Shown in pieces: positions 2,103-61,812 of a stretch of DNA of 64,000 bases; the stretch's first letter is position 1; each line of letters opens with the position of its first letter. The translations under genes and the position numbers were made by a program. The DNA comes from a virus (lineage: Duplodnaviria > Heunggongvirae > Uroviricota > Caudoviricetes), in the IMG/VR virus record IMGVR_UViG_3300010282_000006, positions 10,315 to 74,314 of that record; one strand, given 5' to 3'. The notes beneath the pieces are model-generated. The model saw nothing but the letters and a program-made list of their open reading frames with translations. It was not told where the DNA came from and searched no databases.

Positions 2103-2579
2103 TTATAGAGCACGCGCAAATTGATTGTCAGATGCAAGCGTAACGCCAAGTAAATCGTCGTATCGTGTTGGACGGTTCGGGATATAGCGCCCAAACTTCA
2201 CAATGACATGCTTACCACGCAAAGCATCGAGCTTGTCTTTGATTTCTTCGGGATAATAGCCTGTGTAGATGACAAACGGACTTTCCGCGTCGTCCGCACG
2301 AAGCAAGGAGAGAAGATGATATAGCTCGTCGAATTGAAGCATTGGCTCCAAACCACCGACGACGATAGCCGTTGTGATTGGGTTGGACAGATACATCTTC
2401 ACAAGCGTTTCGTCCGATATGTCGCGGATTGGCGACTGCATGAGCGGACTATTCTGGCACAGCGCAACACTGTGTCCGGCTTCCGTGCAGCACTTCCAGT
2501 CACAAACAGCGCTTGCGATGAACATGGACGGGCGCTTATAATTACAGAAGTCCTCTGCAACAAAACCACGCAGCTTCAT
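2103..2579 (-). CDS. nrdG: anaerobic ribonucleotide reductase activating protein (small NrdG type)
   Basis: 158 aa directly downstream of nrdD; VVGGLEP, FVIYTGYYPEE and C-terminal DLLGVTLASDNQ segments resemble NrdG; Cys cluster is non-canonical (CDWKCC). Confidence 0.65.
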   Translation of the reverse strand: MKLRGFVAEDFCNYKRPSMFIASAVCDWKCCTEAGHSVALCQNSPLMQSPIRDISDETLVKMYLSNPITTAIVVGGLEPMLQFDELYHLLSLLRADDAESPFVIYTGYYPEEIKDKLDALRGKHVIVKFGRYIPNRPTRYDDLLGVTLASDNQFARAL

Positions 2580-4591
2580 TACATCATCCCGTCCTTCTGG
2601 AGCACGTTAAACCAACGGCGTCTGTCGAACTCACGCTTGCGAATTTTCTGGTAGCTGCTGACGGGGACATAAAAGCCGACGACGCGAGCGTAGGTGTCGG
2701 CAACGGGCTTGCCACAGTTGGGGCATGTCGCCGTACCGATAAAGGCGTGCTTATCCTCGCAGACAGAAATCTTCGTTGTGAAAGCGAAGTATATAACGCC
2801 CATTGCCGCGACATAGTTGAGCATATCCCATGCGGATTCTTTATCAGGGAAACGGTTTTCGATGTTGATGTGTGCAATGCAGCCGCCGCCACACTTGGCG
2901 TCAAACAGACTGCCAAGCCTGCACTTCTCCTGAATGGTGCATTTCTCCATCAGCGGAATCCACTGATTAGAGTAGATGAAATACTTGTCCTGCTCATAGA
3001 GGAGGTTGTCAGCCTGACAAATGACACCTGCGCAATTTTCAGCCGGAATCATCTCCACATTGAACGAAAAATCGCAGTCGAAACTGTCCTTTACTTTGTT
3101 TATCGTATCAAGGATCTTGGTGGCAAACCTGACAGCCTCATCGGAATAGCTTTTGTTCCCGACCTCATCCGTGTCAATCAGTCCGAAAAGATCCATAACC
3201 TCATACATCCCGATGCCGCCGATCGTGCAGAACTGTTTGTCCAGCTCAACTGCGCCATCCTGATAGTTCGGCAGCAAACCCTTTTCGATGTTGCGCTTGA
3301 TGATGTGGCGCATGGAAGTAAGCGCCTTGCAGTCGAGGAGAACACGCTTTTTCAGAATCTTGATGTATTCTGCCTGATCGAAATTGCTCTCGTAGGCAAT
3401 TCGGACAAGGTTGATGGTGCTGACACGGCAGGAGCCGACGGATAGCGCCGTACCGCCGATGCTGTTGATGAAGGCGTCGAGCTTTTTGGTGTCGCTGAGG
3501 AGACGGCAGCAGTTGGAAAGCACGCCGACATTATCACTACAGAAGAAATTGCTGTCAGACCAGTCAATGTTGTGATCAGAGCACCAACGCGCAAACGGCA
3601 CGTCAACAAACACGTCCCATTCGCGTGTCTTGATCATTTCGGCGACTTTCTCCGGCGTAAGCGGTTTCTTGAGCAATGAATATGTGAGCACCGGATAGGT
3701 GAACATATTTACAACGCGAATTTCGCTGACGACCTCCATAAACACCTTCTGACATTCCACCAGTTCATCAATGTGGTCGATGGCAAACGTACCGTCAGGG
3801 AAGACCACGCCGCCGAACAGGGACTCCATGTACGGATGGTCGAAGATAGAAATGTTGGTAAATGAACTCTGATCCACGCGCAGAAACGGCTGGTTCAAAC
3901 GGTAGATCAGCTTTTGGAACTGCTGACGAAGATAGTAGTCCGGATCTTTCATGTAGTATCCGTCCTCAACGTCTTTCTTCCAGAAGTACCATGCCCAAAC
4001 CAGAACATTCGGCATACCAACGGCTCCGCTCTGGCGGTTGGAAAGGAACGACACGAACTCGATCACATCGTCAAAATAGGTTGTAAGGTGCTTCGGTGCC
4101 TGATTGTTGTAGCGCTTTTTGGTGAACACGATCTCTCCGTTTACGTCCTCGAACTGACCGTTGAGGAAGAACAGCCCTTCCTCGGCGAGTCGTGTGAAAT
4201 CGTTAGCCCAACAATACGGGAAGTAACTTGCTGTTGCGCTGTCGTTGAGATAGAAACCTTTGGAAAACTCTTGCTCCAGCCATTCCTTTGCCGTACGCAA
4301 GCCCCAGCGCTTCTTGGTCTCGTAGAAAATCTTATTGAGGCCGAATAACTTATCTTCGCTCTTCCCTTTTTCCGTCATGAAACTGCGAATGTCCTTGTGA
4401 TTTGCATTTGCGTTCGGATCAATGCTCGCGTCGGCAAGCGTATCCTTGTCGACGAAATTTTCGATGAACTCCGAAAAATCCAACTGGCTCGGATGGATGC
4501 CGTTTAGATATTCAAAATCCTCGCCATATTTCTTTTTCAGGTCTTCCAAGCACCGTTCAAAGTCCTTGGAAAGTTTCAGCTCAATGTTCAT
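2579..4591 (-). CDS. nrdD: anaerobic ribonucleoside-triphosphate reductase (class III RNR)
   Basis: 670 aa; C-terminal zinc ribbon CPNCG and glycyl-radical motif RVVGFYVP. Confidence 0.9.
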   Translation of the reverse strand: MNIELKLSKDFERCLEDLKKKYGEDFEYLNGIHPSQLDFSEFIENFVDKDTLADASIDPNANANHKDIRSFMTEKGKSEDKLFGLNKIFYETKKRWGLRTAKEWLEQEFSKGFYLNDSATASYFPYCWANDFTRLAEEGLFFLNGQFEDVNGEIVFTKKRYNNQAPKHLTTYFDDVIEFVSFLSNRQSGAVGMPNVLVWAWYFWKKDVEDGYYMKDPDYYLRQQFQKLIYRLNQPFLRVDQSSFTNISIFDHPYMESLFGGVVFPDGTFAIDHIDELVECQKVFMEVVSEIRVVNMFTYPVLTYSLLKKPLTPEKVAEMIKTREWDVFVDVPFARWCSDHNIDWSDSNFFCSDNVGVLSNCCRLLSDTKKLDAFINSIGGTALSVGSCRVSTINLVRIAYESNFDQAEYIKILKKRVLLDCKALTSMRHIIKRNIEKGLLPNYQDGAVELDKQFCTIGGIGMYEVMDLFGLIDTDEVGNKSYSDEAVRFATKILDTINKVKDSFDCDFSFNVEMIPAENCAGVICQADNLLYEQDKYFIYSNQWIPLMEKCTIQEKCRLGSLFDAKCGGGCIAHINIENRFPDKESAWDMLNYVAAMGVIYFAFTTKISVCEDKHAFIGTATCPNCGKPVADTYARVVGFYVPVSSYQKIRKREFDRRRWFNVLQKDGMM

Positions 4592-15780: not shown

Positions 15781-16050
15781 TCAATCATCAAGCGCCCGCA
15801 GTACAAAGCAGGCGTCGCAATAGCGTTTCCTGTCGTGTTCGATTTGGACGTAATCGCCCTTAATCGCTTCGCCGCAGCCGTCGCACACGATCGTTCTCAC
15901 ATAGGCTCCGCCACAAAACGGGCAGCATGTCGATGTCTCGTAAGGAGGCGAGTGAAACCCGTGACGCTCTACGATGGTTTGCGGATCGTCGAACAGCTCT
16001 CCGCAGTCCAAGCAAGTGTATGTCGGCATCATGCTCCGACCGCTTTCCAA
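15781..16050 (-). CDS. small Cys-rich zinc-ribbon protein
   Basis: 89 aa with CLDCG..CCPFCGG..CDGCG..CDAC. Confidence 0.4.
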   Translation of the reverse strand: MESGRSMMPTYTCLDCGELFDDPQTIVERHGFHSPPYETSTCCPFCGGAYVRTIVCDGCGEAIKGDYVQIEHDRKRYCDACFVLRALDD

Positions 16051-16340
16051 ACCGTCGTATTGCGCATCGTTGTCGGGCTGCGCCGACGACCAACAGCCTT
16101 AACAATGCCGTCGTCGCGCATTTCGGTTAGGCGGGGCTTGACATAGTTTCGATCGGTGGATGGGATCGTTCCGTTTTTACACAGAACGTCGGTAATCTCC
16201 TCGGCGGTCATGCCATTTGGATCGCCGTTTTTCATCACCGCGAGGATGTTGTTTTTGCGGTTTATGCGCGCAGGCTTCACCGCATTAAATGCTTCACGTC
16301 GATTTTTGAGAGGGATGCTCAATTCGTTCGCTCCTTTCAA
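16029..16340 (-). CDS. hypothetical protein
   Basis: 103 aa ORF in operon. Confidence 0.35.
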   Translation of the reverse strand: MKGANELSIPLKNRREAFNAVKPARINRKNNILAVMKNGDPNGMTAEEITDVLCKNGTIPSTDRNYVKPRLTEMRDDGIVKAVGRRRSPTTMRNTTVWKAVGA

Positions 16341-16501
16341 TGATACAAACTCCGGTTTCTTGCGCAGTGATCGTCGGGCATATCATTCCGCCGCCCTGCA
16401 CTCTGCCGCGCCGCGTTTTACTGTTGGGATAGGACAGGTCGACAGCCCCCACGACACACTCGATAAATCCTTGCTTGGTGGCCTGCTTGATCTTTACCGT
16501 C

Positions 16502-17203
16502 TCAATACGCCATCACTCCTTTTGCGGGACACTGTACCATCCGGTCTTCGCACCCCCCCCCGCCTGCCTCTGCCTTGAGCGCGCGGGAGATTCCAGAACT
16601 GTCGTAGATGCGGTTTGCGTCGCCGTTGTAGTTGTTGATGTACCCGATCTGACGAAGCTCGGCGACGTCCGCCAACTCTCCGGTCATTTTTCTGCCATTC
16701 GTCGGATCAAGCCGCGTCAGCGCGGCCTCAAACGCTCCGATACCGGAGAAAAATGAACCGACCGTCATGTCTTCGAACAAATACGGCATCGCATCGTAGA
16801 GATTCGCCATGATCTGCTCAAGAACATCGACAACAATGCTGTTACCGGCCTGCTTGTAGAGCTGACTGCCGCATTTGTCCTTGCCGTGGTAAATCTTATC
16901 GTTCATAGCGTTCCTCGCTCTGTCAAACTGATCATCGAAGAAGCCCATCAAACGCCAGCACTCACGCTGCGTCAATTTGCGCACGCGAAAACCTGTGCGC
17001 TTTGCAATGCTTTCCATAGATCCCCTCTCTGTGTCATCCAGTTCACAAAAGCTCACCAGAACATTGTCCTTCTGCACGCCTGTCAGGGTGTTGGTAAAAT
17101 CGTCTCGGCGCAATTCGAGCCGTTGGATAATACCCCCCCCATCATCGTATCTGCCGCGTATTGCGGCTGGGAAGATCTGACTGTGGTATTCCATCCGTCT
17201 CAA
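16502..17203 (-). CDS. C5-cytosine DNA methyltransferase module: TRD-like segment, motif IX (RKLTQRECWRLMGF), motif X (QAGNSIVV) and then motif I (FFSGIGAFEAAL) at the C-terminal side; ORF-track start is TTG
   Basis: motif order read directly from translation; two G8/G9 tracts inside (17133-17140, 16553-16561). Confidence 0.6.
   Translation of the reverse strand: MRRMEYHSQIFPAAIRGRYDDGGGIIQRLELRRDDFTNTLTGVQKDNVLVSFCELDDTERGSMESIAKRTGFRVRKLTQRECWRLMGFFDDQFDRARNAMNDKIYHGKDKCGSQLYKQAGNSIVVDVLEQIMANLYDAMPYLFEDMTVGSFFSGIGAFEAALTRLDPTNGRKMTGELADVAELRQIGYINNYNGDANRIYDSSGISRALKAEAGGGGCEDRMVQCPAKGVMAY
16553..16561 (-). repeat. G9 homopolymer (coding strand) in C5-methyltransferase module
   Basis: counted in sequence. 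Confidence 0.9.
17133..17140 (-). repeat. G8 homopolymer (coding strand) in C5-methyltransferase module
   Basis: counted in sequence. Confidence 0.9.
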
Positions 17204-17392
17204 TCACTCCTGTCATCTGCTGATTTCCAAACCCCTTATAATCTCTCGCAAGGAGAGCCAAGGATACATCCGAATATCCTTCAAACCGCTCGCCCTTGTT
17301 GCTGAGTCTTGCGCCCGCCTTCGACGGAGAGCAAGTCCCAAGTGTGGCGGTCGATTGAACCGCGCCCTCCCGAACGGACGGTGTGGCTGATG

Positions 17393-18088
17393 TTACGGAG
17401 CGGTGGGGGGGGCGAAGCTGTCAGATGAAATCATCTCGGCGACCTTTTCGTCGGAGAGATAGTATTTCTCGTCAACGTCGTCCTCCAGCAAATCGCCCAA
17501 AGCGACTTTGAGCGGAACGGGATCGGGGAATTTGAACTTGCCGTTGTCCAGATCGCTTCGGACAATGACGCAGTAGACGCGCTCGCGGTTCTGCGGGATG
17601 CCATAGTTCTTCGCGTTGAGAACCTGCCAATAGACGTTGTAGCCGTACTCTTCCAGTTCCTTGACGAACATATCGAAGGTGTCGCGGAAGCGTGCGCCGG
17701 TGATATTCTTGACGTTCTCATAGATTGCGAAACGCGGCTTTTTCTCGCGCAAAAAGCGGAGCCATTCTACCAAGAGAGAAGAGCGGGTTTTCTCGATCTT
17801 CGTTGAGCCGCACTTCGGGCATTTGTCGCGCTGTGCGTAATGCGCTTCTAACGGGTTATAGGTGTGACCGCAGTTTTTACAAGTCCACGCAGCCCCCCCC
17901 TGCTTGCCCGCGATAGAAAAATCCTGACAAGGTGAACCGCCGAACATGGTGTTAAAATCAGGGACAACCTTTTCGTCCGCCTTGGTGATGTCACCAATAT
18001 TCAGAACCGGATCGACGCCGTGAATGGCGGCGTAACTCGTTGCGGCGTACTTGTCGAACTCGCAAAATAGGGCAGTTTTGTATTGCAT
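17393..18088 (-). CDS. C5-cytosine DNA methyltransferase catalytic core, motifs II-VIII (FCEFDKYA, GGSPCQDFS, ENV, QNRERV), lacking motif I, with an inserted CxxC..CxxC zinc ribbon
   Basis: 231 aa; RBS-preceded ATG directly after the upstream stop, so motif I is truly absent from the N-terminus; two 8-nt G/C tracts inside. Confidence 0.7.
   Translation of the reverse strand: MQYKTALFCEFDKYAATSYAAIHGVDPVLNIGDITKADEKVVPDFNTMFGGSPCQDFSIAGKQGGAAWTCKNCGHTYNPLEAHYAQRDKCPKCGSTKIEKTRSSLLVEWLRFLREKKPRFAIYENVKNITGARFRDTFDMFVKELEEYGYNVYWQVLNAKNYGIPQNRERVYCVIVRSDLDNGKFKFPDPVPLKVALGDLLEDDVDEKYYLSDEKVAEMISSDSFAPPTAP
17405..17412 (-). repeat. C8 homopolymer (coding strand) three codons before the stop of the C5-methyltransferase core ORF
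   Basis: counted in sequence. Confidence 0.9.
17893..17900 (-). repeat. G8 homopolymer (coding strand) in C5-methyltransferase core ORF
   Basis: counted in sequence. Confidence 0.9.
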
Positions 18089-18105
18089 GTAGATATCTCC
18101 TTAGA

Positions 18106-18426
18106 TCAGCTTTTCGTGATCGAGTTAATCGCTCTCTGCGCAGCACCAACGCCGTTGTCGCGGTCGTACAGCCGTTCATCAATCTCGTCGTCAGAATCCA
18201 ATGACACTTTCATAACTCTGCCTTTCAGATAGTCAAAGTACAGCATAGCGCCTTTTGATCTCATATCATCCAAAATAGCAGCCGCTTCACCCTCCGTCAT
18301 ATCGGCAGGGTCATATTGCAGGAATCCCATACCCTGCGGATGAGAGTGGTTATAGAGCGAAGCCAATACTGCAGCCTTGCTCAAACCTTTAATCAGAACC
18401 ATAGTTACCTCTCTTTCAAAGCACAC
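18106..18426 (-). CDS. hypothetical protein
   Basis: 106 aa. Confidence 0.4.
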   Translation of the reverse strand: MCFEREVTMVLIKGLSKAAVLASLYNHSHPQGMGFLQYDPADMTEGEAAAILDDMRSKGAMLYFDYLKGRVMKVSLDSDDEIDERLYDRDNGVGAAQRAINSITKS

Positions 18427-18959
18427 GACCGAAGGATTTCCTCTGTCAATACATCTGTGTCCTTTGTTGCTTCATAGAGCTTTTCTAAGTCGAACTCTTC
18501 TTCCTGAAACTTGAACTGAATCCATTTTGGCTCATGCTCGCGCCAGTCAAGCCACGATGCAGGATTTTCAATGCCAAGAACATCCTTGACCATTTGCAAA
18601 ATGCGTTCTCCTGCTTTTTTGGATTTTACGAACCCGCTTAGATCGTAGCCAATACCGCGAGGACGCCAAAATTCGCCACCGCCGTCAGGTCTCGGATCAG
18701 GCCACTCATACGGATGCCACGGCGTACCCTTTCGCGGATGCTCTTGAACTTTGGGATAATAGAAACCTCCGTTCCCATCATCAAATCCGATGTTGGATTG
18801 TATTACCCCGTCATCAAAAAATATCTGCTTTTGTCCACATTCTTCACATGTCCCGAAACCACCGATACCGAATCCTTGAAGAACGATGTCGCAACCGCAA
18901 TTAGCACACCCGTACTTCAAAAAATCGTGGTATCGGATTGCAATAACCTTGTTTTTCAT
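18405..18959 (-). CDS. hypothetical zinc-ribbon protein
   Basis: 184 aa with CANCGC...CEECG. Confidence 0.4.
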   Translation of the reverse strand: MKNKVIAIRYHDFLKYGCANCGCDIVLQGFGIGGFGTCEECGQKQIFFDDGVIQSNIGFDDGNGGFYYPKVQEHPRKGTPWHPYEWPDPRPDGGGEFWRPRGIGYDLSGFVKSKKAGERILQMVKDVLGIENPASWLDWREHEPKWIQFKFQEEEFDLEKLYEATKDTDVLTEEILRSCALKER

Positions 18960-18984
18960 GACGCAAACTCCTCATTTTCAATCG

Positions 18985-19489
18985 TTACAGCTTTCGCTCT
19001 ACTGTGACGATCGTGTCGTTCTTACTTCCGCCATGCGGAACCAGCAGCACTTCGAGCATTTCAAAACCGCGTGTCTTTCCGACGCCGTTGCTGTTCCAGC
19101 CGAAGCAAATAGCGATTCCACCCGGTTTTGTGATGCGCCGAATCTCATCCAAATGCTTCGCCCGCCATGATGACTGCGTGGTTTCCTGCGTTACCTCGTA
19201 TCCGAAGCCCTTGTAGCACTCTGCTACCTGACGTAATGAATACGGCGGGTCGTACAGAACGCAGTCAACGGTGCCGTTGCCAAACATCTTCAAAAAGTCC
19301 AGCGCGTCCATGTGATACATGCTGTCGCAGTCCGGATTGATGTCGTTTGTTACCGTTGCGATTTTCGCGTTGTTCGCAAACGGATCAACGACCACCCCCC
19401 CCCTCGACGTACCGGCCAAGAAGCTCGCGGATGGGCTTGATCGAGAAGGTGTATCGGTTTGGCATTGACCAAACTCTACTGAATTTCAT
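18985..19489 (-). CDS. small DPPY-type DNA methyltransferase; the authentic RBS+ATG (19489) is out of frame with the methyltransferase body across a G9 tract (currently OFF)
   Basis: body (ORF 18985..19419, TTG start, no RBS) has CVLYDPPYS; upstream AAGGAGA-N6-ATG encodes MKFSRVWSMPNRYTFSIKPIRELLGRYVE then hits the tract; G8 or G11 restores the frame. Confidence 0.6.
19395..19403 (-). repeat. G9 homopolymer (coding strand) between the ATG and the catalytic body of the small DPPY methyltransferase
   Basis: counted in sequence. Confidence 0.9.
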
Positions 19490-19507
19490 TTGTGATCTCC
19501 TTGTGAT

Positions 19508-20350
19508 TCAAAATGAACACTCGCACGGTAGGTTGTCGTCGTCTTGAATCAACCGCCGCGCGGTCGCCCAAAATTTCTGAGGCGTTGTCTTTTCCGTGGG
19601 ACAAAGCGCCTTTTCTTTGAGCTTTGCAAATTCTTTCTCAAACTCACGAAGATACCCCTGCTTCAAAATGCTAAATCCGATCTGGTCTTCCGCCCATTTC
19701 GCCTTCTCCCAAACGTCAGGCCGCAGACAATAGACAATGAACCAATGCTGCTTTCCAGCTTTGAGACAGCCGATGCAGTTTGCGTGGTTGAATGTCGCGT
19801 AGGTGCTCGGTCTGCGGATTCCGACATCTTCGATTGCGTGGATCGTCCGAGCCTCCCATGTCAGCGGATACTCGGTCAGGTATCCCATTGCCGCCATGAT
19901 GCCCTTGCGCCGCGTGATACGGTTTTGCTCCGTGGCGTCAAATCCATAGACGACGGACACATCCTGCCGGATGCTCTGCGGCGACGTCGGATAGTTCTTG
20001 GACAGCCATTTTGTGAACGGCTTGGTTTTCAACGTCTCCGTGCAAAGCGCCTGCGATTGAACGCCGTATTTGAACGCTTTTCGCTCTACACAGACGTCAA
20101 ACTGGTCTTTTTCCAACCATCCCTGCATATTTGCGTATGTTATCGGTATGCCGAGATAATCGGCGACCTCTTTTTTGAAGCGTTTAATATCTTCGTGTTC
20201 CGTGCGCGGGCAAAGATCGTGGTTTAATAGGATCGTTTTGCCAGCGCCATAGCGCCTGACGGTCTCCACGGCGGCAAGCGCCGAGGAGTGACCGCCGGAA
20301 AAACAAACGATGTGAGTCATACCGACCACAACCATCACGGTTGAGGTCAA
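19508..20350 (-). CDS. PAPS reductase / DndC-like PP-loop ATP pyrophosphatase family protein
   Basis: 280 aa; PP-loop CFSGGHSS; C-terminal cysteine cluster. Confidence 0.65.
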   Translation of the reverse strand: MTSTVMVVVGMTHIVCFSGGHSSALAAVETVRRYGAGKTILLNHDLCPRTEHEDIKRFKKEVADYLGIPITYANMQGWLEKDQFDVCVERKAFKYGVQSQALCTETLKTKPFTKWLSKNYPTSPQSIRQDVSVVYGFDATEQNRITRRKGIMAAMGYLTEYPLTWEARTIHAIEDVGIRRPSTYATFNHANCIGCLKAGKQHWFIVYCLRPDVWEKAKWAEDQIGFSILKQGYLREFEKEFAKLKEKALCPTEKTTPQKFWATARRLIQDDDNLPCECSF

Positions 20351-20456
20351 CCGTCTAATCCTCCTAAGCTACTTGCCATGCGGCTTTCACGCTGTAACAG
20401 ACGGCTTTACCCTGTGCTTATCAATCTCGCAGGAACCCGGCTTACCGGGATTGGTA

Positions 20457-20627
20457 TTAGCTCCTTTCCCTCTTTCTCGCCGCGTTGATCTGGCGGCTCT
20501 TTTTCGCCATCTTACGGCGGATCTTGCGCTTGGCGGCGTAGTTCTTGGGCTTCTTCCAGCCCTTCGCGTGGCGGCCAAACGTATAGCCGTGGAGTCTGAT
20601 CGTGGAATGAGCATTGGAAACCGGCAT
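20457..20627 (-). CDS. small highly basic protein (start trimmed to RBS-preceded ATG)
   Basis: 56 aa, Lys/Arg-rich; preceded by conserved upstream motif 1. Confidence 0.4.
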   Translation of the reverse strand: MPVSNAHSTIRLHGYTFGRHAKGWKKPKNYAAKRKIRRKMAKKSRQINAARKRERS

Positions 20628-28994: not shown

Positions 28995-30161
28995 TTAGGG
29001 AAACAAGTTATCTACAAACCGATCCATGTCGGTCGTCAGCTTGTAACAGTTGCCATGAGAGGCATGGTTTTTCCAAGAGTTGTATTTTTCGTCAAATTTT
29101 TCGCGCGTCATTTTGCCGGACAGCACCAGCTTCGCGTCCTTTCGTAGTCTCTTTTTGATCTGGCGCTTGTTGTCGCCGGTCAACCTCCGAATGACCTTGC
29201 CGTCCTCGGTAAGATAGCTGTGGAACCCAAGAAAACGGACGCCCTTTCGCATTGGCACGATCTCCGTCTTGCTGTTGAGCGTCAGACGAAGCTCTGATAA
29301 ATACGCTTCGATCTTCTTCTTGCAATCCTTCAAATAATTCTTATCGTCGGAGAGCAAATAGAAGTCGTCCGCATATCGGCCGTACCACACACAGCCAAGG
29401 TCTTCCGTAACGTAGTGATCGAGGCCGTCAAGAAACATCAGCGCAAATACCTGACTGCACTGATTGCCAAGCGGCAACCCGAGACCATCCGTGCTGTCTA
29501 TCAGAAGATTGCAAATCCATCGAATACCATCGTCGTCGAAGTAGCGGCGAACGCAGGCTTTCATCAGGTCGTGGTCGATGCTGTAAAAGAACTTGGTAAT
29601 GTCGCATTTGAGAATGTATCCGCCGCTTCCGTGCTTCGCGTAGAAATCCAGCAGGTTTTCCGAAAGTCGATCCAGCCCGAACAAGGTTCCCTTGCCTGCC
29701 TGACCGGCGTAGTTGTCGAGAACGAAACAGCTTTGCAGCCTCGGCAGCAACACGCAGTCGCACAGGCAATGCTGGAGAACCTTATCGCGGAACGTACCTG
29801 ACTTGACGATCCTTCTTTTCGGCTCGGAAACAACAAACGCGGTGTACGCTCCGACGCGGTATGTTCGCTCCTCCAACTGGCGCTTCATCACGACCAGATT
29901 TTCAAGAGCCAACACGCTGAACCGCTGTGCGCTGCGCTTCTTTCCCTTGCCTTTGCGAGCGACCTGATAGGAACTAAACAGATTTTCAAAGCTGGTCAGC
30001 TTCTCAAAGTCGCTCACGGCTTTTGTATTTGTCCCGCCGACGGCGAGAGAGGTTGTGTACTCTTTTGATAGTATGGCGCACTCCTTGTAGCTGTCTAAGC
30101 AGCTTATAGACCTCGCAAATCCACCAGAACGGGCGAACGTCGTTGCTGTAGTCGCAGTCAT
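28995..30161 (-). CDS. diversity-generating retroelement reverse transcriptase
   Basis: 388 aa; RT motifs incl. YADDF and the DGR-diagnostic LGNQCSQ (in place of QGxxxSP); ATG lies inside the template repeat. Confidence 0.85.
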   Translation of the reverse strand: MTATTATTFARSGGFARSISCLDSYKECAILSKEYTTSLAVGGTNTKAVSDFEKLTSFENLFSSYQVARKGKGKKRSAQRFSVLALENLVVMKRQLEERTYRVGAYTAFVVSEPKRRIVKSGTFRDKVLQHCLCDCVLLPRLQSCFVLDNYAGQAGKGTLFGLDRLSENLLDFYAKHGSGGYILKCDITKFFYSIDHDLMKACVRRYFDDDGIRWICNLLIDSTDGLGLPLGNQCSQVFALMFLDGLDHYVTEDLGCVWYGRYADDFYLLSDDKNYLKDCKKKIEAYLSELRLTLNSKTEIVPMRKGVRFLGFHSYLTEDGKVIRRLTGDNKRQIKKRLRKDAKLVLSGKMTREKFDEKYNSWKNHASHGNCYKLTTDMDRFVDNLFP

Positions 30162-39329: not shown

Positions 39330-41273
39330 TTACGCGGTGAGGAGAGGCATAGTCGATGCGGGGGAGATGATGTAGTTCTGCGGCGCGCGCATGACCTCCT
39401 CGTACTCCTCGCGGCCTTGGAACTCATCGACCACGGCGCGGGATTCCGCGTCCATATCGTTGTAGTGCTTCTTTCCATAATCCGGCGGGAGCCACTGGCG
39501 GCTGCGCGCTGCAAAGATGTTGAGGCGGTCAATCAGGCGCTTCGCGTCGTCGTCAAACTTGATGTGGCAGGTTCCCTTCTTGTAGAACGTGGCGGTGAAG
39601 TATTTGAAGTTCATCGTCGTGCGCTGGCACTGTTCCGCAACATGCGCCACGGTGTAGGGGTCGATGGAGGAGCCGGTTTCGCCGCGATCCAGATAGTTCA
39701 AAGCGCGTTCGATGTCCGCGATTTTGCCGGAGAACTCGCGCGCTTCCAATTTCTTCTTGCCGTCATATTTCGTGTAGAATCCGTTGATGGGGAGAATGAC
39801 CTTCATACCGACCTTGTGCGCCTTATTCGTCGCCCACCCACTATAGTAGTGGATGTTCTTGGCGCATTCCGGATACCATGCGTGTTCGGCGGACAGCTCA
39901 TCGAAGAGCTTGTAGATCGCATCCTCCACGCCACGCGAGAGACGCGCGGAGATTTCCAGCATGACCTGCTGAATGTTGTAACGCGAGAAGTCGTAGTCCT
40001 TCATCTCGCTGATTTTGTTGTAATACTCATTATGGAGATCGGAGGTCATCTTTTCCGTCAGTTCGCGGCGGGAAAGCAGCAGATTCCAATACCTTGAGCG
40101 CAAACCGCGCAGATAGGAGTTGATCGTGTCGCTCGTCGCATGGTCGCACTTGTGGTCGTTCACGGAGAGCTGGATGAGCGGCTGGCTGTAAGTATCGGAG
40201 CCGTTCATAATGTACGGCGCAAGCGCGTTATACTCGCGCATGAGAGCGACGCCGGCCTTTGCCTCCATGTTGTAGCCGGAAACAAGCTGATCCATCCAGT
40301 CACCGGCGACCAGATCGGTGACTCCTGCGCTGCGTTCCTCCTCCATCTCAGCGGCGCGTTTGAGACCTTCCAGAATGTTCGACTTACGTTCCGGCTCCGG
40401 AATCCTCAGATAGACGATTGCGACCTCGACGTCGCTCTGACGCTCGGCATGTGAGAAAGCACCGGAAACAAACTCAATCTTGGCCTCGTAACGGGCGAGT
40501 TGCTCCTGCAGCACCTTCCGTCGCTGCGTGTACGGGTTGCGGATGGTCTCTGCATTGAGCAGAGATACGATTTGTCCGCCCGCGTCCTTCTGCATGGAGA
40601 TCGCCTTGAGTAGGTGTTCGTCTCCATTGGAAAACGGCGGATTCATCAGGATCACGTCGTAGTGCTTCATGGTGAAGTAGGTGAGAAAGTCGTCCGACAC
40701 GACACGATAGCCCTTGCCTTTGAGGATCATCTGAAGATTGGCGTCGCGTTCGATGCAGTCCACTCGTTCCATAAAGAAATCGTCCCGATAGTTCCCGTGC
40801 TTGTGGTTGAAGCACTTGAGCGCACAGGAAATCAAGTCGCCCTTTCCGGCGGACGGTTCCAACATTGTATCCGCGTACCGCCAGTCGATCAGATTGACCA
40901 TGCGACCGGCAAGCGCCGTCGGTGTCGGAAAAAACTCTGCATCAGGGGAGGCTGGAAGTGCTCGGACATCCGCGTGCAGCACTTCTGCTCTGTGCTCTGC
41001 ATACCAGTCAGCGAAAATTCTCTTGCCCTCTGCGACGGTTTTGCAGCGACCGATGGGGTTTGTGCGAAAATAGTTGCCGGTGCGCTCGGTGTAGTATTCC
41101 ACATCCATCGGCTTATCCTTATTCCAATGCTCGACCGCAGGCGTGCCGTCCATATAGAAGATCCCGCGAATCACGCCGACCGGCTGCGCGTCCTTGTGGA
41201 TGATGACGCTGCGCTGATAGGCCGGTTTCTCCCATCTGGTACAGCGCTCGGTTTTTTCGGTGTAGTAAAACAT
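39330..41273 (-). CDS. N6-adenine DNA methyltransferase, gamma-class (FPTP motif X, EPSAGKG motif I, NPPF motif IV) with ~400-aa C-terminal domain of unknown function
   Basis: 648 aa after trimming to RBS-preceded MFYYTEK. Confidence 0.75.
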   Translation of the reverse strand: MFYYTEKTERCTRWEKPAYQRSVIIHKDAQPVGVIRGIFYMDGTPAVEHWNKDKPMDVEYYTERTGNYFRTNPIGRCKTVAEGKRIFADWYAEHRAEVLHADVRALPASPDAEFFPTPTALAGRMVNLIDWRYADTMLEPSAGKGDLISCALKCFNHKHGNYRDDFFMERVDCIERDANLQMILKGKGYRVVSDDFLTYFTMKHYDVILMNPPFSNGDEHLLKAISMQKDAGGQIVSLLNAETIRNPYTQRRKVLQEQLARYEAKIEFVSGAFSHAERQSDVEVAIVYLRIPEPERKSNILEGLKRAAEMEEERSAGVTDLVAGDWMDQLVSGYNMEAKAGVALMREYNALAPYIMNGSDTYSQPLIQLSVNDHKCDHATSDTINSYLRGLRSRYWNLLLSRRELTEKMTSDLHNEYYNKISEMKDYDFSRYNIQQVMLEISARLSRGVEDAIYKLFDELSAEHAWYPECAKNIHYYSGWATNKAHKVGMKVILPINGFYTKYDGKKKLEAREFSGKIADIERALNYLDRGETGSSIDPYTVAHVAEQCQRTTMNFKYFTATFYKKGTCHIKFDDDAKRLIDRLNIFAARSRQWLPPDYGKKHYNDMDAESRAVVDEFQGREEYEEVMRAPQNYIISPASTMPLLTA

Positions 41274-41552
41274 TCCGTTCCTCCTTTTCAAATTTGCTGC
41301 TTGCACTCTTACCAGAGAACGATTTGTGAATTTGCTAACTGAACAAAAAAAGACGCCGGATTGCTCCGGCGTCTCACAATTTACAGCAGCTCTACACAGG
41401 TCAGATAGTCATATTCGTCTCCATCAACGGATACGGTGTCGCCGCTCTCAAAGAGGTTTTGCAGCCACTCGTCGTATGCCTCCGGGCTTCCGGCGTTCCA
41501 GCGCTTTTCGTCCAGCCACTCACGGAGCGCGCGGACGCTGGAGAACGTGTAG

Positions 41553-55699: not shown

Positions 55700-56503
55700 T
55701 TACATGTGCAGCGCCGTCAACTGCTCGCGCAGCTTCACAATACGCTTGTGCACGGCGACGTTGGAGATCGTTCCGATGTCCTGTGCAATCTCGCGTTCCG
55801 TGTATCCGCGCCCGACAAGCTCCAAAATCCTGTTGTTGATTTCGTCGCAGCCGTCCCGGAAGTCCTCCATATCTGCCTTGAGGATAGCGGCGCGTTCCGT
55901 GTCGTCTTCGCTCGCGCAAATCGTTTCGACCGCGCTGCAGGTCTCCCCGTCTTCCGTTTCCAGCTCGCGCACGCTCGCCGCGCTGTGCTTGCTGTCCTGA
56001 TAGAAAACCGCTGCAACGCTCGCGTCGGCAGCCTCATAGACCAGCTTGACCAGCTCAAGCGGGCGCTTGCCCTGAGCCGCGCGGCGCTCGTTTCGCTTCG
56101 TCAGCTTGTCGGCGTCGAGCTTGACCGCCAGCCGCAGCCACGTTTCTGAAACGAACTCGTCAAGATCGTGCAGCCCGTACAGGCCGAACGCGGGCACCTC
56201 GGAGAACTGCAAATCGTGGTCTTCGGTGCTGTACTTGATGCGGTCTTTCGCGGCTTTGTGGATGCACTTCTTCATGAATGCGACCTGCTCGCCCTCAGAC
56301 AGGGCAGCCCACGCGGAGACGACGCGCGCCGCGTTCGCGCCAGCGTTCGCGCCTTCGGTCTCTGCCCACGCAATACGCAGGCAGGCGGAGAAGAGGACTT
56401 CAGAGACCTTGCAGCCGATTTCAGAGGCAGCCGCGCGGCGAATGTCCCACGCGCGGAGCATAACGGCGGACTTGTTGGTGGTGTTGGTGGTGGTGGTTTT
56501 CAT
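55700..56503 (-). CDS. sigma-70-like protein (C-terminal region-4 HTH TEREIAQDIGTISNVAVHKRIVKLR); first gene of the leftward array
   Basis: 267 aa; HTH shared with 26843..28444. Confidence 0.45.
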   Translation of the reverse strand: MKTTTTNTTNKSAVMLRAWDIRRAAASEIGCKVSEVLFSACLRIAWAETEGANAGANAARVVSAWAALSEGEQVAFMKKCIHKAAKDRIKYSTEDHDLQFSEVPAFGLYGLHDLDEFVSETWLRLAVKLDADKLTKRNERRAAQGKRPLELVKLVYEAADASVAAVFYQDSKHSAASVRELETEDGETCSAVETICASEDDTERAAILKADMEDFRDGCDEINNRILELVGRGYTEREIAQDIGTISNVAVHKRIVKLREQLTALHM

Positions 56504-56602
56504 GGTGGTATCTCCTTTACAAAATAGATTTTTGTCGCCATATCGGAAGAGCCGGAGCGGAGCCGGAGCCGAAGCCCCGAAGCGCCCCGCGCGCCCCTCT
56601 TG

Positions 56603-56631
56603 AGCTACCTATATTGTACCACGGTCAACCC
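56603..56631 (-). promoter_or_regulatory. canonical sigma70 promoter (TTGCAA-17-TACAAT) heading the leftward gene array
   Basis: hexamers read on minus strand. Confidence 0.5.
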
Positions 56632-56705
56632 TATATTGCAACAGATTTTTGTCTTGCTAACCTCAGAACGGTATAAATTTTTGTCGTTCAAAATTGTGCA
56701 AAATA

Positions 56706-57118
56706 CCGAAGCCCTGACAGATCAGCCGGAGACCTGGCACGGCAGCGGAGCAGGCGAGCAGGGCGACGCATAGCGGAGCCATGCACCGACGAGCGAAGCG
56801 AGCGCGAGCGCCAGCAGGCGCAGCGCAGCGGAGCCAGCAAGCGAGGCCGCCAGCCCAGCAGCAGCACCAGCACCACCGGCAGCGGGCAGCAGAGGCGAAG
56901 AGCAGCCAGAACGGAGAGAGGGAAGGGGGAGAGGAGCGGAACGCCGCCACACGTCCAGCACATAAGGCCGGAGACCGAACGCCCAGCACCAGCACCACCG
57001 GCACGCCCTCAGCAGGCCGCCACCAGCGCCCGCAGATCGACCGGAAGAGCGCCAGCAGGCGCAGCCTACCAGACGCGGACACAGCGCCAGAGGCGAAGCG
57101 CCGCCGCCGTCACCATCC
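56706..57118. repeat. ~410-bp compositionally extreme block: T almost absent on plus strand (A absent on minus), with CAGCACCAGCACCACCGGCA-type short repeats
   Basis: about 11 T in 413 nt by eye-count; overlapping ORFs are low-complexity artefacts. Confidence 0.6.
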
Positions 57119-57712
57119 CGCGCACGGTCTCCGCAGGCGCTCCGCCGGTTCTACTTTTTGCGAGTATGCAGAACCGGACGCCCGGAAGCCCTGAAACGGC
57201 GCGCCCTCAGCGCTTGCGCCGCGTCGATGCAGGCAGCGCAGCAGACCAGCGCGCCGCGAATAGTCCACAGGGGGAGCCTTGACATTTTGGCGCGTACCCA
57301 TAACGCAACCTCGTGGTATAGTACCTCACACCACGCACCAATTCTCAAAAATCCCCTCACACATCACACCCCACCTTGCACCACGCAAGTGTTCTGATAG
57401 AAACAATACAAACTACCATACATAATTGAGAGCTTCTAAATAACCGGCGTTCTCGAACGGTTTTTCCAAGCACCTCAAAGAATCATTCTGCATTTACATC
57501 CCTTTGTGTTGTTATACCGACAACGCTCGGAAAGCATACCATAAATCTATCCTCAGCACGGTAAGAAACCCGCATACAGAAAGGCTTTGACCGACATGAC
57601 ATCGTGCGATCTTGCGTTGAATGATGGATTCTAGCGTTTCTGCAGGATCATCGAAATCGTCAAAGTTCATAAAAACATACGCCGAAAGTACGATAAAAAT
57701 TTATATAATGTA

Positions 57713-57741
57713 TTGACTTCAGCAGAGAGATAAAGTATAAT
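57713..57741 (+). promoter_or_regulatory. sigma70-type promoter (TTGACT-17-TATAAT) for integrase
   Basis: hexamers read on plus strand in AT-rich leader. Confidence 0.45.
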
Positions 57742-57816
57742 AAAGCCAATGAGACAGGCGTGTTTTTTGCTTTTTCTAAAGTACGACATAAATCTATTTA
57801 CGGAAGGAGCAGCAAT

Positions 57817-58752: not shown

Positions 58753-59026
58753 TTTATTTTTCCATCCCATTTCTGTACGGTAATACCATCATCGAGACCT
58801 TGTACGGTAACGAGTCGAGGATAATCTGGCGGTATGTAAGGCTTGGCAATTATTATAAGGCTTTACGGTATACAAAATCCGCATCGCGTAAATTGTCCGT
58901 CTTGCACTGCTTAGGAGGTGCTGCGCAAAGCAAAGCTCGACGCCCCTGTCGAGCGGCAGATGGCAGAACGGCCGCCTGTCCGCTGCAGAGCTTTCAAGTA
59001 TCCCGCGAGCGAAGCGAAGCGGACAG

Positions 59027-59479
59027 GTGCAAAACGTGAAAAAGTTATTTTTGCAACTTTTTTGCAAGAAACAGAATCCCCTTACCCCTTTAAGGGTCTA
59101 CGTTCAAGAATCGCCTGTTTATGCGGGTTTGAGATGGGTCAAAATCGAGTTTTGGAACCTCGATGGTTCCAAGCAAAAAGTGAAACTGCAATTTTGCAAC
59201 TATTTTGGAGGTTTTGGATTGAGTGCCGACGTGTGCGTTTTTGATTTGTGGCTGAAGGGCTGCGAGATAAACGAGACAAAAATCTATCCGTTGGAAGGGC
59301 AAGGCAAAACGGCGCTCTACAAAGTTTGGAAAGATTTTATCGGCGCGGACTATCACGAATACCACACAACGCCGGTCTTTATCGGCTGGGTGGACGGAAG
59401 GCAGGTCTGCGCGACGACGAACTATAAAAGCGCTTTGGCGTGTTGGAGAAATTACGCGAAAAGCGGAGGTCGTGTTTGA
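59027..59479 (+). CDS. hypothetical protein
   Basis: 150 aa. Confidence 0.35.
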   Translation: MQNVKKLFLQLFCKKQNPLTPLRVYVQESPVYAGLRWVKIEFWNLDGSKQKVKLQFCNYFGGFGLSADVCVFDLWLKGCEINETKIYPLEGQGKTALYKVWKDFIGADYHEYHTTPVFIGWVDGRQVCATTNYKSALACWRNYAKSGGRV

Positions 59480-60191: not shown

Positions 60192-60192
60192 C

Positions 60193-61199: not shown

Positions 61200-61210
61200 G
61201 GAGGTCGGCT

Positions 61211-61809: not shown

Positions 61810-61812
61810 GCA

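What the first reader, a model, noticed from the sequence alone, without database searches (positions are those of the whole stretch)
18985..19489. Small DPPY methyltransferase is separated from its real start codon by a G9 tract: OFF as sequenced, G8 or G11 turns it ON
The methyltransferase body (CVLYDPPYS) is only open from a TTG with no Shine-Dalgarno. A strong RBS (AAGGAGA) plus ATG sits 70 nt upstream at 19489 in the +1 frame. It encodes MKFSRVWSMPNRYTFSIKPIRELLGRYVE and then enters the G9 tract and stops after 34 codons. By frame arithmetic, removing one G (or adding two) fuses this N-terminus in frame to ...GGVVVDPFANNAKIATV... and the rest of the enzyme. This is a textbook ON/OFF slipped-strand switch located inside a phage genome.
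Basis: seen in the sequence. Interest (0 to 1): 0.7.

Follow-up and report, generated by a model that had tools for sequence, protein, structure and literature searches.

The report
Poly-G on/off switch in phage methyltransferase
A phage gene for a small DNA-methylating enzyme is cut in two by a run of nine Gs whose length differs by one base between otherwise identical phage genomes, so it most likely acts as a reversible on/off switch, here caught in the off position.

Summary
On the minus strand, a Shine-Dalgarno site plus ATG (19489) opens a 34-codon ORF that ends just after a G9 tract (19403..19395). G8 or G11 fuses it to the DPPY methyltransferase body, giving 167/168 aa.

- **The fused protein is the real gene.** It matches about 2,500 homologues end to end, and the match to PHROG 11619 runs across the junction.
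- **The tract is real.** Three other assemblies from at least two sequencing runs are 100% identical to the window, including G9.
- **The tract is conserved and variable.** A 97%-identical relative has G8 (ON). In a sister phage, three samples have G8 and three have G9.
- **Tract lengths are the only differences.** Sister-phage genomes differ by 0 substitutions in up to 13.4 kb. All differences are indels in nine poly-G/C tracts in the methyltransferase module.
- **The tracts are clustered.** The window has five G/C runs of 8 or more, all within 3.2 kb, and no run of 6 or more elsewhere (P~1e-10).

This is a slipped-strand contingency switch, OFF as sequenced, and one of a cluster of such tracts. 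Its adaptive role (hedging between restriction systems) is inferred. I rate it a new member of a known kind. Precedents are T2 agt, Campylobacter-phage polyG tracts and bacterial phase-variable methyltransferases.

The parts
19496..19502 (-). Shine-Dalgarno site AAGGAGA, six bases upstream of the true start codon
   Evidence: Read directly from the sequence. It lies 18 nt after the stop of the upstream PAPS-reductase-like gene, which is an operon-like spacing.
19385..19489 (-). OFF-state ORF: the true N-terminus of the methyltransferase (residues 1-29), then GGGGR and a stop
   Evidence: The 34-aa peptide is on record in public gene calls (P0243). Residues 5-20 are nearly invariant in the family. 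They form helices 11-27 that pack before strand beta-1 in the AlphaFold model.
19395..19403 (-). G9 homopolymer (C9 on the + strand): the switch. G8 or G11 is in frame; G9 is out of frame.
   Evidence: One search gives the in-silico lengths. The tract is G9 in three further identical assemblies and G8 in the 97% relative L174. It is G8 or G9 at the same position in the sister phage. It is an in-frame G9 at the same position in the 61%-identical homologue L108. About 150 other family members have no such tract.
18985..19394 (-). Methyltransferase body in the +1 frame: motif-I-like VVVDPFAN, motif IV DPPY, down to the stop codon
   Evidence: Purifying selection against the sister phage in this frame only: pN 0.09-0.11, pS 0.46-0.82.
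18985..19489 (-). The complete switchable gene (167 aa when the tract is G8)
   Evidence: P0242 is the natural 167-aa ON allele, with 3 aa differences.
17893..17900 (-). Second tract, G8 on the coding strand, in the C5-cytosine methyltransferase just after the catalytic PCQ motif (..AGKQGGAAW..). It is in frame in the window.
   Evidence: The homologous tract is G9 (out of frame) in most sister-phage samples, G8 in L008 and G10 in L011.
17405..17412 (-). Third tract, C8 on the coding strand, at the end of the C5 methyltransferase catalytic part. C8 gives an immediate stop. C7 joins one recognition-domain-like module. C9, by frame arithmetic, joins another.
   Evidence: C7 in L003 and L016 reads through into ..SRNISHAVRTGGRGSTDRHTWD..; C8 in L001 stops.
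17133..17140 (-). Fourth tract, G8 on the coding strand, encoding Gly-Gly-Gly in ..AAIRGRYDDGGGIIQ.. It is in frame with the downstream piece that carries motifs IX, X and I.
   Evidence: The homologous tract is G8 in L001 and L003 and G9 in L016.
16553..16561 (-). Fifth tract, G9 on the coding strand, in ..KAEAGGGG|AKTGWY.. (an HhaI-like recognition module). It is out of frame in the window.
   Evidence: The homologous tract is G8, G9 or G10 in L001, L003 and L016.
16297..18088 (-). Neighbouring C5-cytosine methyltransferase region, circularly permuted, with several recognition-domain modules. It is split into pieces in three frames.
   Evidence: Each piece is under purifying selection in its own frame. 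The continuous homologue P0121 covers 95% of the concatenated pieces. The whole region is absent from L174.

Best explanation
The G9 run is a hypermutable homopolymer (a contingency locus) inside the coding sequence of a phage-encoded small DPPY amino-methyltransferase.

How it most likely works:
- Slipped-strand mispairing during replication adds or removes one G.
- With G8 (or G11), the ribosome starting at ATG 19489 reads through and makes the full 167-aa enzyme. That is the ON state.
- With G9, as in this window, translation stops after 34 codons. At best an N-terminally truncated body lacking conserved helices can be made. That is the OFF state.
- The switch is heritable and reversible, and it is one of several such tracts in the phage's methyltransferase module.
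- A phage population therefore carries a mixture of methylation states.

What is shown:
- The frame logic.
- That the fused product is the genuine protein.
- That G9 is reproducible.
- That the tract is conserved in position, varies by one base between otherwise identical or near-identical genomes, and is statistically improbable.

What is inferred:
- The slippage mechanism itself.
- That the truncated product is inactive.
- That the enzyme methylates DNA.
- That the benefit is bet-hedging. Methylated phage DNA would escape classical restriction but be exposed to methylation-dependent restriction, and unmethylated DNA the reverse. If the phage is a prophage, the switch could instead give variable methylation of the host genome.
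For: Frame logic.

Genuine full-length product:
- The PHROG 11619 match spans the junction, E=8e-51.
- 2,563 homologues, mostly about 168 aa with 99-100% coverage and a conserved N-terminus.
- The AlphaFold model puts residues 11-27 as helices directly before strand beta-1, VVVDPF.

Reproducibility: L175, L176 and L177 are 100% identical to the window over 20.4, 8.8 and 6.1 kb, including all five tract lengths.

Toggling at the same tract:
- L174 (96-97% nt identity) has G8 and a called 167-aa protein, P0242.
- In the sister phage the tract is G8 in samples 3300021318, 3300023705 and 3300021310.
- It is G9 in samples 3300021311, 3300021306 and Ga0307462.

Hypermutability, from sister-phage comparisons:
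- L001 vs L003: 13,410 bp, 0 mismatches, 5 gaps.
- L016 vs L001: 8,490 bp, 0 mismatches, 6 gaps.
- L008 vs L001: 4,452 bp, 0 mismatches, 2 gaps.
- L011 vs L001: 2,623 bp, 0 mismatches, 2 gaps.
- All gaps match the tract-length differences listed.

Tract not forced by coding:
- About 150 other family members have no run longer than 7 at this position.
- The flanking codons differ between lineages (GAG/GTG against GTG/GTA), yet the run is kept.
- GGG is the rarest Gly codon elsewhere in the window.

Clustering: P~1e-10.

Gene not decaying: pN/pS is about 0.1-0.2.

Precedents:
- An A9 tract in T2 agt was shown experimentally to toggle DNA glucosylation between two type IV restriction systems (PMC12633550).
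- PolyC/G tracts with a modal length of nine drive phase variation in C. jejuni (PMC3401435 abstract).
Against: - No reads were available, so heterogeneity within one population and the switching rate are not shown.
- In the window's own lineage all four assemblies are G9. The ON allele is seen only in a relative that differs by about 3%.
- The enzyme misses the Pfam gathering score for N6_N4_Mtase (18.9 against 26.7 bits).
- Its nearest structures are generic DPPY Rossmann methyltransferases that include tRNA enzymes, with TM 0.4-0.58. DNA methylation and its target are therefore unproven.
- The adaptive (bet-hedging) reading has no direct support here.
- The ENA and Logan assemblies may be re-assemblies of the same samples as the JGI ones. 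The number of truly independent samples is smaller than the number of loci.
Confidence: 0.78

Rival explanations
1. Dead gene. The frameshift is an ordinary inactivating mutation at a mutational hotspot, now fixed in this lineage. The tract is not maintained by selection as a switch.
For: All four assemblies of the window's lineage carry G9. The neighbouring C5 methyltransferase is broken in every genome seen and is deleted outright in L174, so methyltransferase loss does occur in this clade.
Against: - The tract is kept at the same codon position in lineages differing by 3%, about 16% and 39% at the protein level, with both in-frame and out-of-frame lengths.
- Five such tracts cluster in 3.2 kb in a window that otherwise has no G/C run of 6 or more.
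- Both halves of the gene show purifying selection and conserved residues.
- A frameshift at a G9 run is intrinsically reversible.
Confidence: 0.12
2. Sequencing or assembly artefact. The real tract is G8 and the gene is intact.
For: Homopolymers are the classic site of indel errors. No reads could be inspected.
Against: - The same G9, and the same four other tract lengths, appear in an ENA MEGAHIT assembly and in Logan assemblies of two separate runs.
- JGI and ENA assemblies of the sister phage agree with each other at all nine tracts (L001=L002, L003=L004), while differing between samples.
- The other contigs fetched for this comparison come from JGI, ENA and Logan assemblies. I take these to be short-read (Illumina) data on general knowledge. 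The platform was not checked with any tool.
Confidence: 0.04
3. The G9 allele is expressed anyway. RNA polymerase slippage on the nine-base run, or a +1 ribosomal shift, restores the frame in a fraction of products, so G9 is a low-level or constitutive expression state rather than OFF.
For: Nine-base homopolymers are known sites of transcriptional slippage in bacteria (general knowledge). Losing one G in the mRNA would restore the frame.
Against: - Known productive slippage sites are mostly A/T runs (general knowledge).
- A -1 ribosomal slip lands in the wrong frame. The required +1 shift has no hungry codon or stop in the A site (by inspection).
- The DNA-level length itself differs between genomes, which is sufficient to explain ON and OFF states.
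Confidence: 0.06

Closest known systems
Contingency locus in phage T2 agt (alpha-glucosyltransferase), Gomez, Barrick & Waters, bioRxiv 2025 (PMC12633550)
   Same: A homopolymer of about nine bases sits inside a phage DNA-modification gene. Frameshifts of +/-1 switch the modification off and on again at high frequency. The proposed benefit is hedging between defence systems that attack modified and unmodified DNA.
   Different: - The T2 tract is poly-A in an AT-rich lytic coliphage, and switching was measured experimentally.
- Here the tract is poly-G, in a methyltransferase of an uncultivated phage that carries an integrase and infects an anaerobe.
- Here there are five to nine clustered tracts confined to the methyltransferase module.
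- The evidence here is comparative only.
Hypermutable polyG tracts of Campylobacter phages (Sorensen et al., Cell Rep 2021; cited in PMC12823448)
   Same: Phage-encoded poly-G tracts give phase-variable expression.
   Different: Those tracts lie in receptor-binding protein genes and change host range, not DNA modification. The host and phage group are unrelated.
Phase-variable bacterial methyltransferases: Type III mod 'phasevarions' of Haemophilus, Neisseria and Helicobacter, and the polyG-controlled Type IIG enzyme Cj0031 of C. jejuni (PMC4889913, PMC3230613)
   Same: A simple-sequence repeat lies within the methyltransferase reading frame. ON/OFF switching occurs by slipped-strand mispairing. 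The G tracts are 8-10 bases long.
   Different: Those are chromosomal genes that belong to restriction-modification systems and act as regulators of host genes. Here the gene is an orphan, very small (167 aa) enzyme in a phage replication/modification module, with no restriction partner nearby.
Beta-class N6-adenine/N4-cytosine DNA methyltransferases (M.RsrI, M.MboIIA, DpnA, CcrM, rotifer N4CMT)
   Same: They share the DPPY catalytic motif and following helices. These are the best sequence matches among solved structures.
   Different: - The motif order is reversed: the DPF(A) AdoMet-binding motif comes before DPPY.
- There is no recognisable target-recognition domain.
- The protein is half the size.
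- The Pfam threshold is not reached.
Multispecific C5-cytosine methyltransferases of Bacillus phages (SPR, phi3T, rho11s) - relevant to the neighbouring gene
   Same: The neighbouring gene is a phage C5 methyltransferase with several tandem recognition-domain-like modules between motifs VIII and IX.
   Different: The enzyme here is circularly permuted (motif I after motif X), carries a zinc-ribbon insert, and is interrupted by poly-G/C tracts. Multispecificity was not tested.

Membership tests
Simple-sequence-repeat contingency (phase-variable) locus | A repeat tract within the reading frame, so that gain or loss of one unit changes the frame | tested here: met
   G8 and G11 give 167/168 aa. 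G9 gives 34 aa.
Simple-sequence-repeat contingency (phase-variable) locus | Tract length in the range known to be hypermutable (G/C runs of about 8 or more) | tested here: met
   The tract is G9. The modal polyC/G length in C. jejuni phase-variable genes is nine (PMC3401435 abstract).
Simple-sequence-repeat contingency (phase-variable) locus | Tract length polymorphic among otherwise identical genomes | tested here: met
   In the sister phage there are 0 substitutions, and only tract indels, over 2.6-13.4 kb between samples. The homologous tract is G8 in three samples and G9 in three. In the window's own lineage the contrast is G9 against G8 in a 97% relative.
Simple-sequence-repeat contingency (phase-variable) locus | The ON state encodes a complete, conserved protein | tested here: met
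   A natural ON allele, P0242, exists.
Simple-sequence-repeat contingency (phase-variable) locus | Measured high-frequency, reversible switching within a population | not testable with these tools
   No reads or cultures were available.
DNA amino-methyltransferase (N6-adenine / N4-cytosine, Pfam N6_N4_Mtase PF01555) | Catalytic motif IV (D/S)PP(Y/F) | tested here: met
   DPPY at residues 80-83, invariant in the family.
DNA amino-methyltransferase (N6-adenine / N4-cytosine, Pfam N6_N4_Mtase PF01555) | Score above the curated family threshold | tested here: not met
   18.9 bits against a gathering score of 26.7. Only profile positions 1-54 of 221 are matched. The NCBIfam adenine methyltransferase models also fall far below their cut-offs.
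DNA amino-methyltransferase (N6-adenine / N4-cytosine, Pfam N6_N4_Mtase PF01555) | DNA as substrate and a defined target base or sequence | not testable with these tools
   Only annotation names are available (PHROG 'DNA methyltransferase', NCBI 'adenine-specific DNA methylase'). The fold search also returns tRNA and rRNA DPPY enzymes.
PHROG 11619 (phage small DNA methyltransferase family) | Full-length profile match | tested here: met
   E=7.8e-51, residues 11-166 against profile positions 21-174 of 186.
Phasevarion (phase-variable Mod of a restriction-modification system controlling a regulon) | The methyltransferase is the mod or hsdM component of a restriction-modification system | tested here: not met
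   The neighbours are a PAPS-reductase-like gene, two small unknown genes, a C5 methyltransferase and recombination/replication genes. No restriction subunit was found.
Phasevarion (phase-variable Mod of a restriction-modification system controlling a regulon) | Switching changes expression of a set of host genes | not testable with these tools
   This would need methylome and transcriptome data from lysogens.
Phage contingency loci (T2 agt; Campylobacter phage polyG) | The locus lies in a phage genome | tested here: met
   The sister contigs are IMG/VR viral genomes of 91-126 kb. The window carries ERF, SSB, PD-(D/E)XK nuclease, primase-helicase, Pol III alpha, NrdD, RNA ligase, a reverse transcriptase and an integrase. 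No structural genes were identified in the ORFs I scanned.
Phage contingency loci (T2 agt; Campylobacter phage polyG) | Switching alters infection success against host defences or receptors | not testable with these tools
   This needs an experiment.

The most novel reading that the evidence does not exclude
The tract is one element of a phage-borne 'methylome randomiser'. In this clade, five to nine independently slipping poly-G/C tracts sit in up to three methyltransferase genes: the small DPPY enzyme, a circularly permuted C5 enzyme with several recognition modules, and an MT-A70 enzyme in the sister phage. Several tracts lie at Gly-Gly(-Gly) codons inside recognition-domain modules. One C tract selects among three alternative C-terminal continuations. 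Each burst would then release progeny with many different combinations of methylation activities, and possibly of specificities. An unrelated Lachnospiraceae element (L100) has six G9 tracts in a C5 methyltransferase with several recognition modules, and other gut or rumen phages also carry polyG in methyltransferase genes. The strategy may therefore be widespread among phages of anaerobic Bacillota.
Probability: 0.3. Interest if true: 0.8.

Novelty: new member of a known kind. Interest (0 to 1): 0.6.

Why it matters
Phages must cope with two opposed kinds of defence. Classical restriction enzymes cut unmethylated DNA, and type IV enzymes cut methylated DNA. A heritable, fast, reversible switch in the phage's own methyltransferases would let a clonal burst contain both kinds of progeny.

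Experimental proof of such switching in a phage DNA-modification gene exists so far for one coliphage glucosyltransferase (a 2025 preprint). Here, natural metagenomic populations show the expected footprint for methyltransferases. Genomes without a single substitution differ at up to six tracts.

Two practical points follow.
- Gene callers truncate or split these genes, as in the 136-aa and 34-aa calls in public databases.
- Tract length should be treated as a variable state when predicting phage methylation or host range.

Tried and rejected
- **Phage GenBank search.** Megablast of 16000-20500 against the phage GenBank collection gave no match. The phage has no sequenced cultured relative.
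- **Contig look-up.** The exact look-up of contigs for P0001 failed. The cluster look-up then gave P0241 and P0242, which led to the window's own lineage.
- **Metagenome scan.** Only one (L011) was relevant.
- **Simulation.** A Markov simulation for the clustering statistic timed out. I replaced it with the analytic expectation.
- **Literature.** Searches for sample accessions found nothing, so the environment and host stay unknown. Searches found no report of a phage-encoded polyG-controlled methyltransferase.
- **Host assignment.** The genome collection gave only homologues of 67% identity or less, spread over Clostridia and other Bacillota.
- **Ribosomal frameshifting.** I rejected it by inspection. 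A -1 slip on G GGG GGG enters the wrong frame, and the needed +1 shift has no stimulatory context.
- **Single full-length C5 methyltransferase.** I tried to restore one in the window by tract changes alone. It is not possible. Two frame changes, near 17290 and 17180, have no tract. The second coincides with a deletion relative to the sister phage.

Full report
**1. The observation**

On the minus strand the sequence reads ..cacAAGGAGAtcacaaATGAAATTC... The ATG at 19489 opens MKFSRVWSMPNRYTFSIKPIRELLGRYVEGGGGR*. The run of nine G occupies 19403..19395. The body VVVDPFANN...CVLYDPPYS...TVERKL* is open in the +1 frame down to 18985.

Rewriting the tract in silico gives these ORF lengths:
- G8: 167 aa.
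- G11: 168 aa.
- G6, G9, G12: 33-35 aa.
- G7, G10: 45-46 aa.

**2. Is the fused protein the real gene?**

Yes.
- The G8 product matches PHROG 11619 (DNA methyltransferase) with E=7.8e-51, in one stretch from residue 11 to 166, across the junction at about residue 30.
- A search of 5.8 billion proteins found 2,563 homologues. Most are about 168 aa long and cover 99-100% of the fused sequence at 66-75% identity.
- In an alignment of 28 of them, the part that is cut off in the window carries nearly invariant residues: R5, W7, M9, N11, T14, F15, I17, P19 and I20. The few residues around the tract are the most variable in sequence and length, so one more or one fewer glycine is tolerated.
- An AlphaFold model (pLDDT 75, pTM 0.76) places residues 11-27 as two helices immediately before the first strand, VVVDPF. 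A product starting after the tract would lack them.

**3. What kind of enzyme is it?**

- It has the DPPY motif of amino-methyltransferases, preceded by a DPFA(N) motif.
- The best sequence matches among solved structures are beta-class N4-cytosine and N6-adenine DNA methyltransferases, and these are weak.
- The fold search returns generic DPPY Rossmann enzymes, including Trm11, TrmN and RsmD-like proteins, with TM 0.4-0.58.
- The Pfam gathering score for N6_N4_Mtase is not reached, and the NCBIfam models fall far below their cut-offs.

I therefore call it a small DPPY amino-methyltransferase of a phage family annotated as a DNA methyltransferase. Its DNA substrate, target base and target sequence are not established.

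**4. Is G9 an artefact?**

The exact-sequence cluster of the truncated 136-aa public call (P0001) also holds P0241 (136 aa) and P0242 (167 aa). Their contigs show two things.

First, three assemblies are 100% identical to the window over 20.4, 8.8 and 6.1 kb, with the same five tract lengths (G9, G8, C8, G8, G9):
- L175, an ENA MEGAHIT assembly.
- L176, the Logan assembly of SRR5190121.
- L177, the Logan assembly of SRR5190120.

Second, L174 (Logan, SRR25030108) is 96-97% identical in nucleotide sequence. It has G8 at this position and a called 167-aa gene with only three amino-acid differences.

G9 is therefore the reproducible majority state of this phage in at least two sequencing runs. The ON allele exists in a close relative.

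**5. The same tract toggles in a sister phage**

A sister phage was recovered from six JGI samples. Its small methyltransferase is 84% identical in protein and the module is 81-87% identical in nucleotides. It has the run at the same codon position. The tract is G8 (in frame) in samples 3300021318, 3300023705 and 3300021310. It is G9 (out of frame) in samples 3300021311, 3300021306 and Ga0307462.

These genomes are otherwise clonal:

| Comparison | Length (bp) | Mismatches | Gaps |
|---|---|---|---|
| L001 vs L003 | 13,410 | 0 | 5 |
| L016 vs L001 | 8,490 | 0 | 6 |
| L008 vs L001 | 4,452 | 0 | 2 |
| L011 vs L001 | 2,623 | 0 | 2 |

The gaps match the differences in the tract table below. Tract lengths, for tracts t1 to t9:

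| Genome | t1 | t2 | t3 | t4 | t5 | t6 | t7 | t8 | t9 |
|---|---|---|---|---|---|---|---|---|---|
| L001 | 8 | 9 | 8 | 9 | 8 | 7 | 8 | 8 | 9 |
| L003 | 8 | 9 | 7 | 8 | 8 | 9 | 9 | 8 | 8 |
| L016 | 9 | 9 | 7 | 8 | 9 | 8 | 10 | 8 | 9 |
| L008 | 9 | 8 | - | - | - | - | - | - | - |
| L011 | 9 | 10 | - | - | - | - | - | - | - |

JGI and ENA assemblies agree with each other at all nine tracts (L001=L002, L003=L004). Consensus tract length is therefore reproducible, and the differences lie between samples. A tract changes far faster than an ordinary base, which is the signature of a hypermutable repeat.

**6. The tract is not forced by the protein**

- Among 77 other viral loci and 75 genomic loci encoding the family, the longest homopolymer in the 45 nt before DPFA is usually 2-5 bases.
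- The one exception is L108, a Eubacteriales MAG whose homologue is 61% identical. It has a G9 at the same position, in frame there.
- The flanking codons differ between the window (GAG GGG GGG GTG) and the sister phage (GTG GGG GGG GTA), yet the run is preserved.
- Elsewhere in the window GGG is the rarest glycine codon (11.8%). None of 75 Gly-Gly dipeptides is written GGGGGG.
- The window has no G/C run of 6 or more outside 16300-19500, but five runs of 8 or more inside it. The expectation is 0.028 and Poisson P is about 1e-10.
- The gene is under purifying selection in its own frame. Against the sister phage, pN is 0.09-0.11 and pS is 0.46-0.82.

**7. Mechanism**

*Shown:*
- A one-base length change at this run decides between a full-length conserved protein and a 34-codon stub.
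- Such changes have happened repeatedly in nature.

*Inferred from established knowledge of simple-sequence contingency loci:* the changes arise by slipped-strand mispairing during replication and are reversible.

*Inferred, in the absence of any test:*
- The OFF product is inactive.
- The enzyme methylates phage DNA, or host DNA if the phage is a prophage. The window carries an integrase at 57760-58752.
- The benefit is hedging between restriction of unmethylated DNA and restriction of methylated DNA.

The nearest experimental precedent is the A9 tract in T2 agt. It flips glucosylation off and on, trading sensitivity to TgvAB against sensitivity to McrA/BC (PMC12633550).

**8. Rivals**

- **Assembly error.** This is unlikely, for the reasons in sections 4 and 5.
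- **Plain pseudogene.** This cannot be excluded for this particular lineage, because all four assemblies are G9. It does not explain the conservation and clustering of the tracts, and a frameshift at a G9 run is reversible in any case.
- **Transcriptional slippage.** This could make the OFF state leaky.
- **Ribosomal frameshifting.** A -1 slip enters the wrong frame, and the required +1 shift has no stimulatory context (by inspection).

**9. Surroundings**

The gene sits in an operon-like array on the minus strand. In order, the array contains:
- a PAPS-reductase-like gene (19508..20350, PHROG 424);
- the small methyltransferase;
- two small unknown genes;
- a C5-cytosine methyltransferase region (18088..16297);
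- a winged-helix-like gene;
- ERF, SSB, a PD-(D/E)XK nuclease, a primase-helicase and Pol III alpha.

The C5 enzyme belongs to a large family of circularly permuted C5 methyltransferases. In this family motif I, SFFSGIGAFE, follows motif X, and a zinc ribbon follows PCQ. Intact members are 470-555 aa long. P0121 covers 95% of my concatenation of the window's pieces.

In the window and the sister phage this gene is split into pieces in three frames. Most breaks are at the tracts. Every piece is under purifying selection in its own frame. No genome seen encodes it intact, and L174 lacks it altogether. I could not resolve how, or whether, it is expressed.

**10. Comparison and novelty**

The kind of mechanism is well known: a repeat-mediated ON/OFF switch in a methyltransferase gene.
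- It is common in bacterial chromosomes, in the phasevarions and in Cj0031 of C. jejuni.
- It is documented for phage receptor-binding genes (Campylobacter phages).
- It has been shown for one phage DNA-modification gene (T2 agt).

I found no report of a phage-encoded methyltransferase controlled by a polyG tract, nor of a methyltransferase module with clustered tracts. My literature access is limited to open-access papers.

I rate the given finding as a new member of a known kind. The cluster-wide reading is the more novel possibility.

Noticed in passing
window 16297-18088 (minus strand); tracts at 17893-17900, 17405-17412, 17133-17140, 16553-16561: The neighbouring C5-cytosine methyltransferase is circularly permuted (motif I after motif X) and has a zinc-ribbon insert after PCQ. 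It carries several recognition-domain-like modules and is split into pieces in three frames, mostly at poly-G/C tracts. Each piece is under purifying selection in its own frame. Two frame changes (near 17290 and 17180) have no tract. No genome seen encodes it intact.
   Followed up: partly
window 17405-17412 (C8 on the coding strand): This tract looks like a three-way switch. C8 stops at once (..APPTAP*). C7 reads into the module ..NISHTVRSGGRGSIDRHTWD... C9, by frame arithmetic, reads into ..ERFEGYSDVSLALLARDYKG... Both alternative frames are open in the window and in the sister phage. C7 and C8 states are both seen in sister-phage samples.
   Followed up: partly
L001 10063-13076 (= L015, L016, L003 equivalents): The sister phage has nine G/C tracts in 3 kb across the small methyltransferase, the C5 methyltransferase and an inserted MT-A70 methyltransferase. 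The C8 tract in MT-A70 is in frame and constant in the three full haplotypes seen. The MT-A70 reading frame is displaced from its ATG and Shine-Dalgarno site at an A5 run (L001 ~12445).
   Followed up: partly
L174 4184-4707 against window 16354-18964: A 97%-identical relative lacks 2.6 kb present in the window: the two small unknown genes and the whole C5 methyltransferase. It keeps only the small methyltransferase, with its tract in the ON length.
   Followed up: yes
L100 5478-7317 (uncultured Lachnospiraceae MAG, contig CANQTL010000011.1): In a 46% G+C element, a C5 methyltransferase of normal motif order with many recognition modules carries one G7 and six G9 tracts within 1.9 kb. Several encode Gly-Gly-Gly, and the modules lie in different frames. 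It sits next to a tract-less homologue of the small methyltransferase.
   Followed up: partly
L108 4087-4095 (Eubacteriales MAG, JAQWCW010000033.1): A 61%-identical homologue of the small methyltransferase has an in-frame G9 at the same position (..EKYVAGGGTIIDPFA..). It is the only other case among about 150 family members examined.
   Followed up: yes
L022 2970, L026 4540, L136 3486, L062 5834, L033 1462, L028 3153: G8 or G9 runs occur in low-G+C (32-45%) phage or prophage loci:
- L022: just before motif IX of a C5 methyltransferase.
- L026: inside a natural fusion of the small methyltransferase with a C5 methyltransferase.
- L136: at the N-terminus of a beta-class methyltransferase.
- L062: in a PAPS-reductase-like protein.
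- L033 and L028: in proteins of unknown function.

The loci were chosen around methyltransferase genes, so the sample is biased.
   Followed up: partly
window 28995-30161 (minus strand); L001/L002 ~2990-3660: A reverse transcriptase gene (RVT_1) may belong to a diversity-generating retroelement. L001 and L002 are otherwise identical but differ by a 225-bp indel next to or within the homologous gene (called products of 221 and 296 aa).
   Followed up: no
window 39330-41306 (minus strand): A third, large methyltransferase-like gene (Dam domain plus DUF4942, 658 aa) has no homopolymer tract.
   Followed up: no
window 19508-20350 (minus strand): A PAPS-reductase-like PP-loop protein (PHROG 424) lies immediately upstream of the small methyltransferase, 18 nt from its Shine-Dalgarno site. 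The pairing with methyltransferases may point to a further DNA-modification function.
   Followed up: no
window 55700-64000: A tyrosine integrase gene lies on the opposite strand (57760-58752, +). GC skew flips from negative to positive at about 56 kb. The phage is probably temperate, or the window crosses a module or prophage boundary. NrdD (2579-4591) points to an anaerobic host.
   Followed up: no
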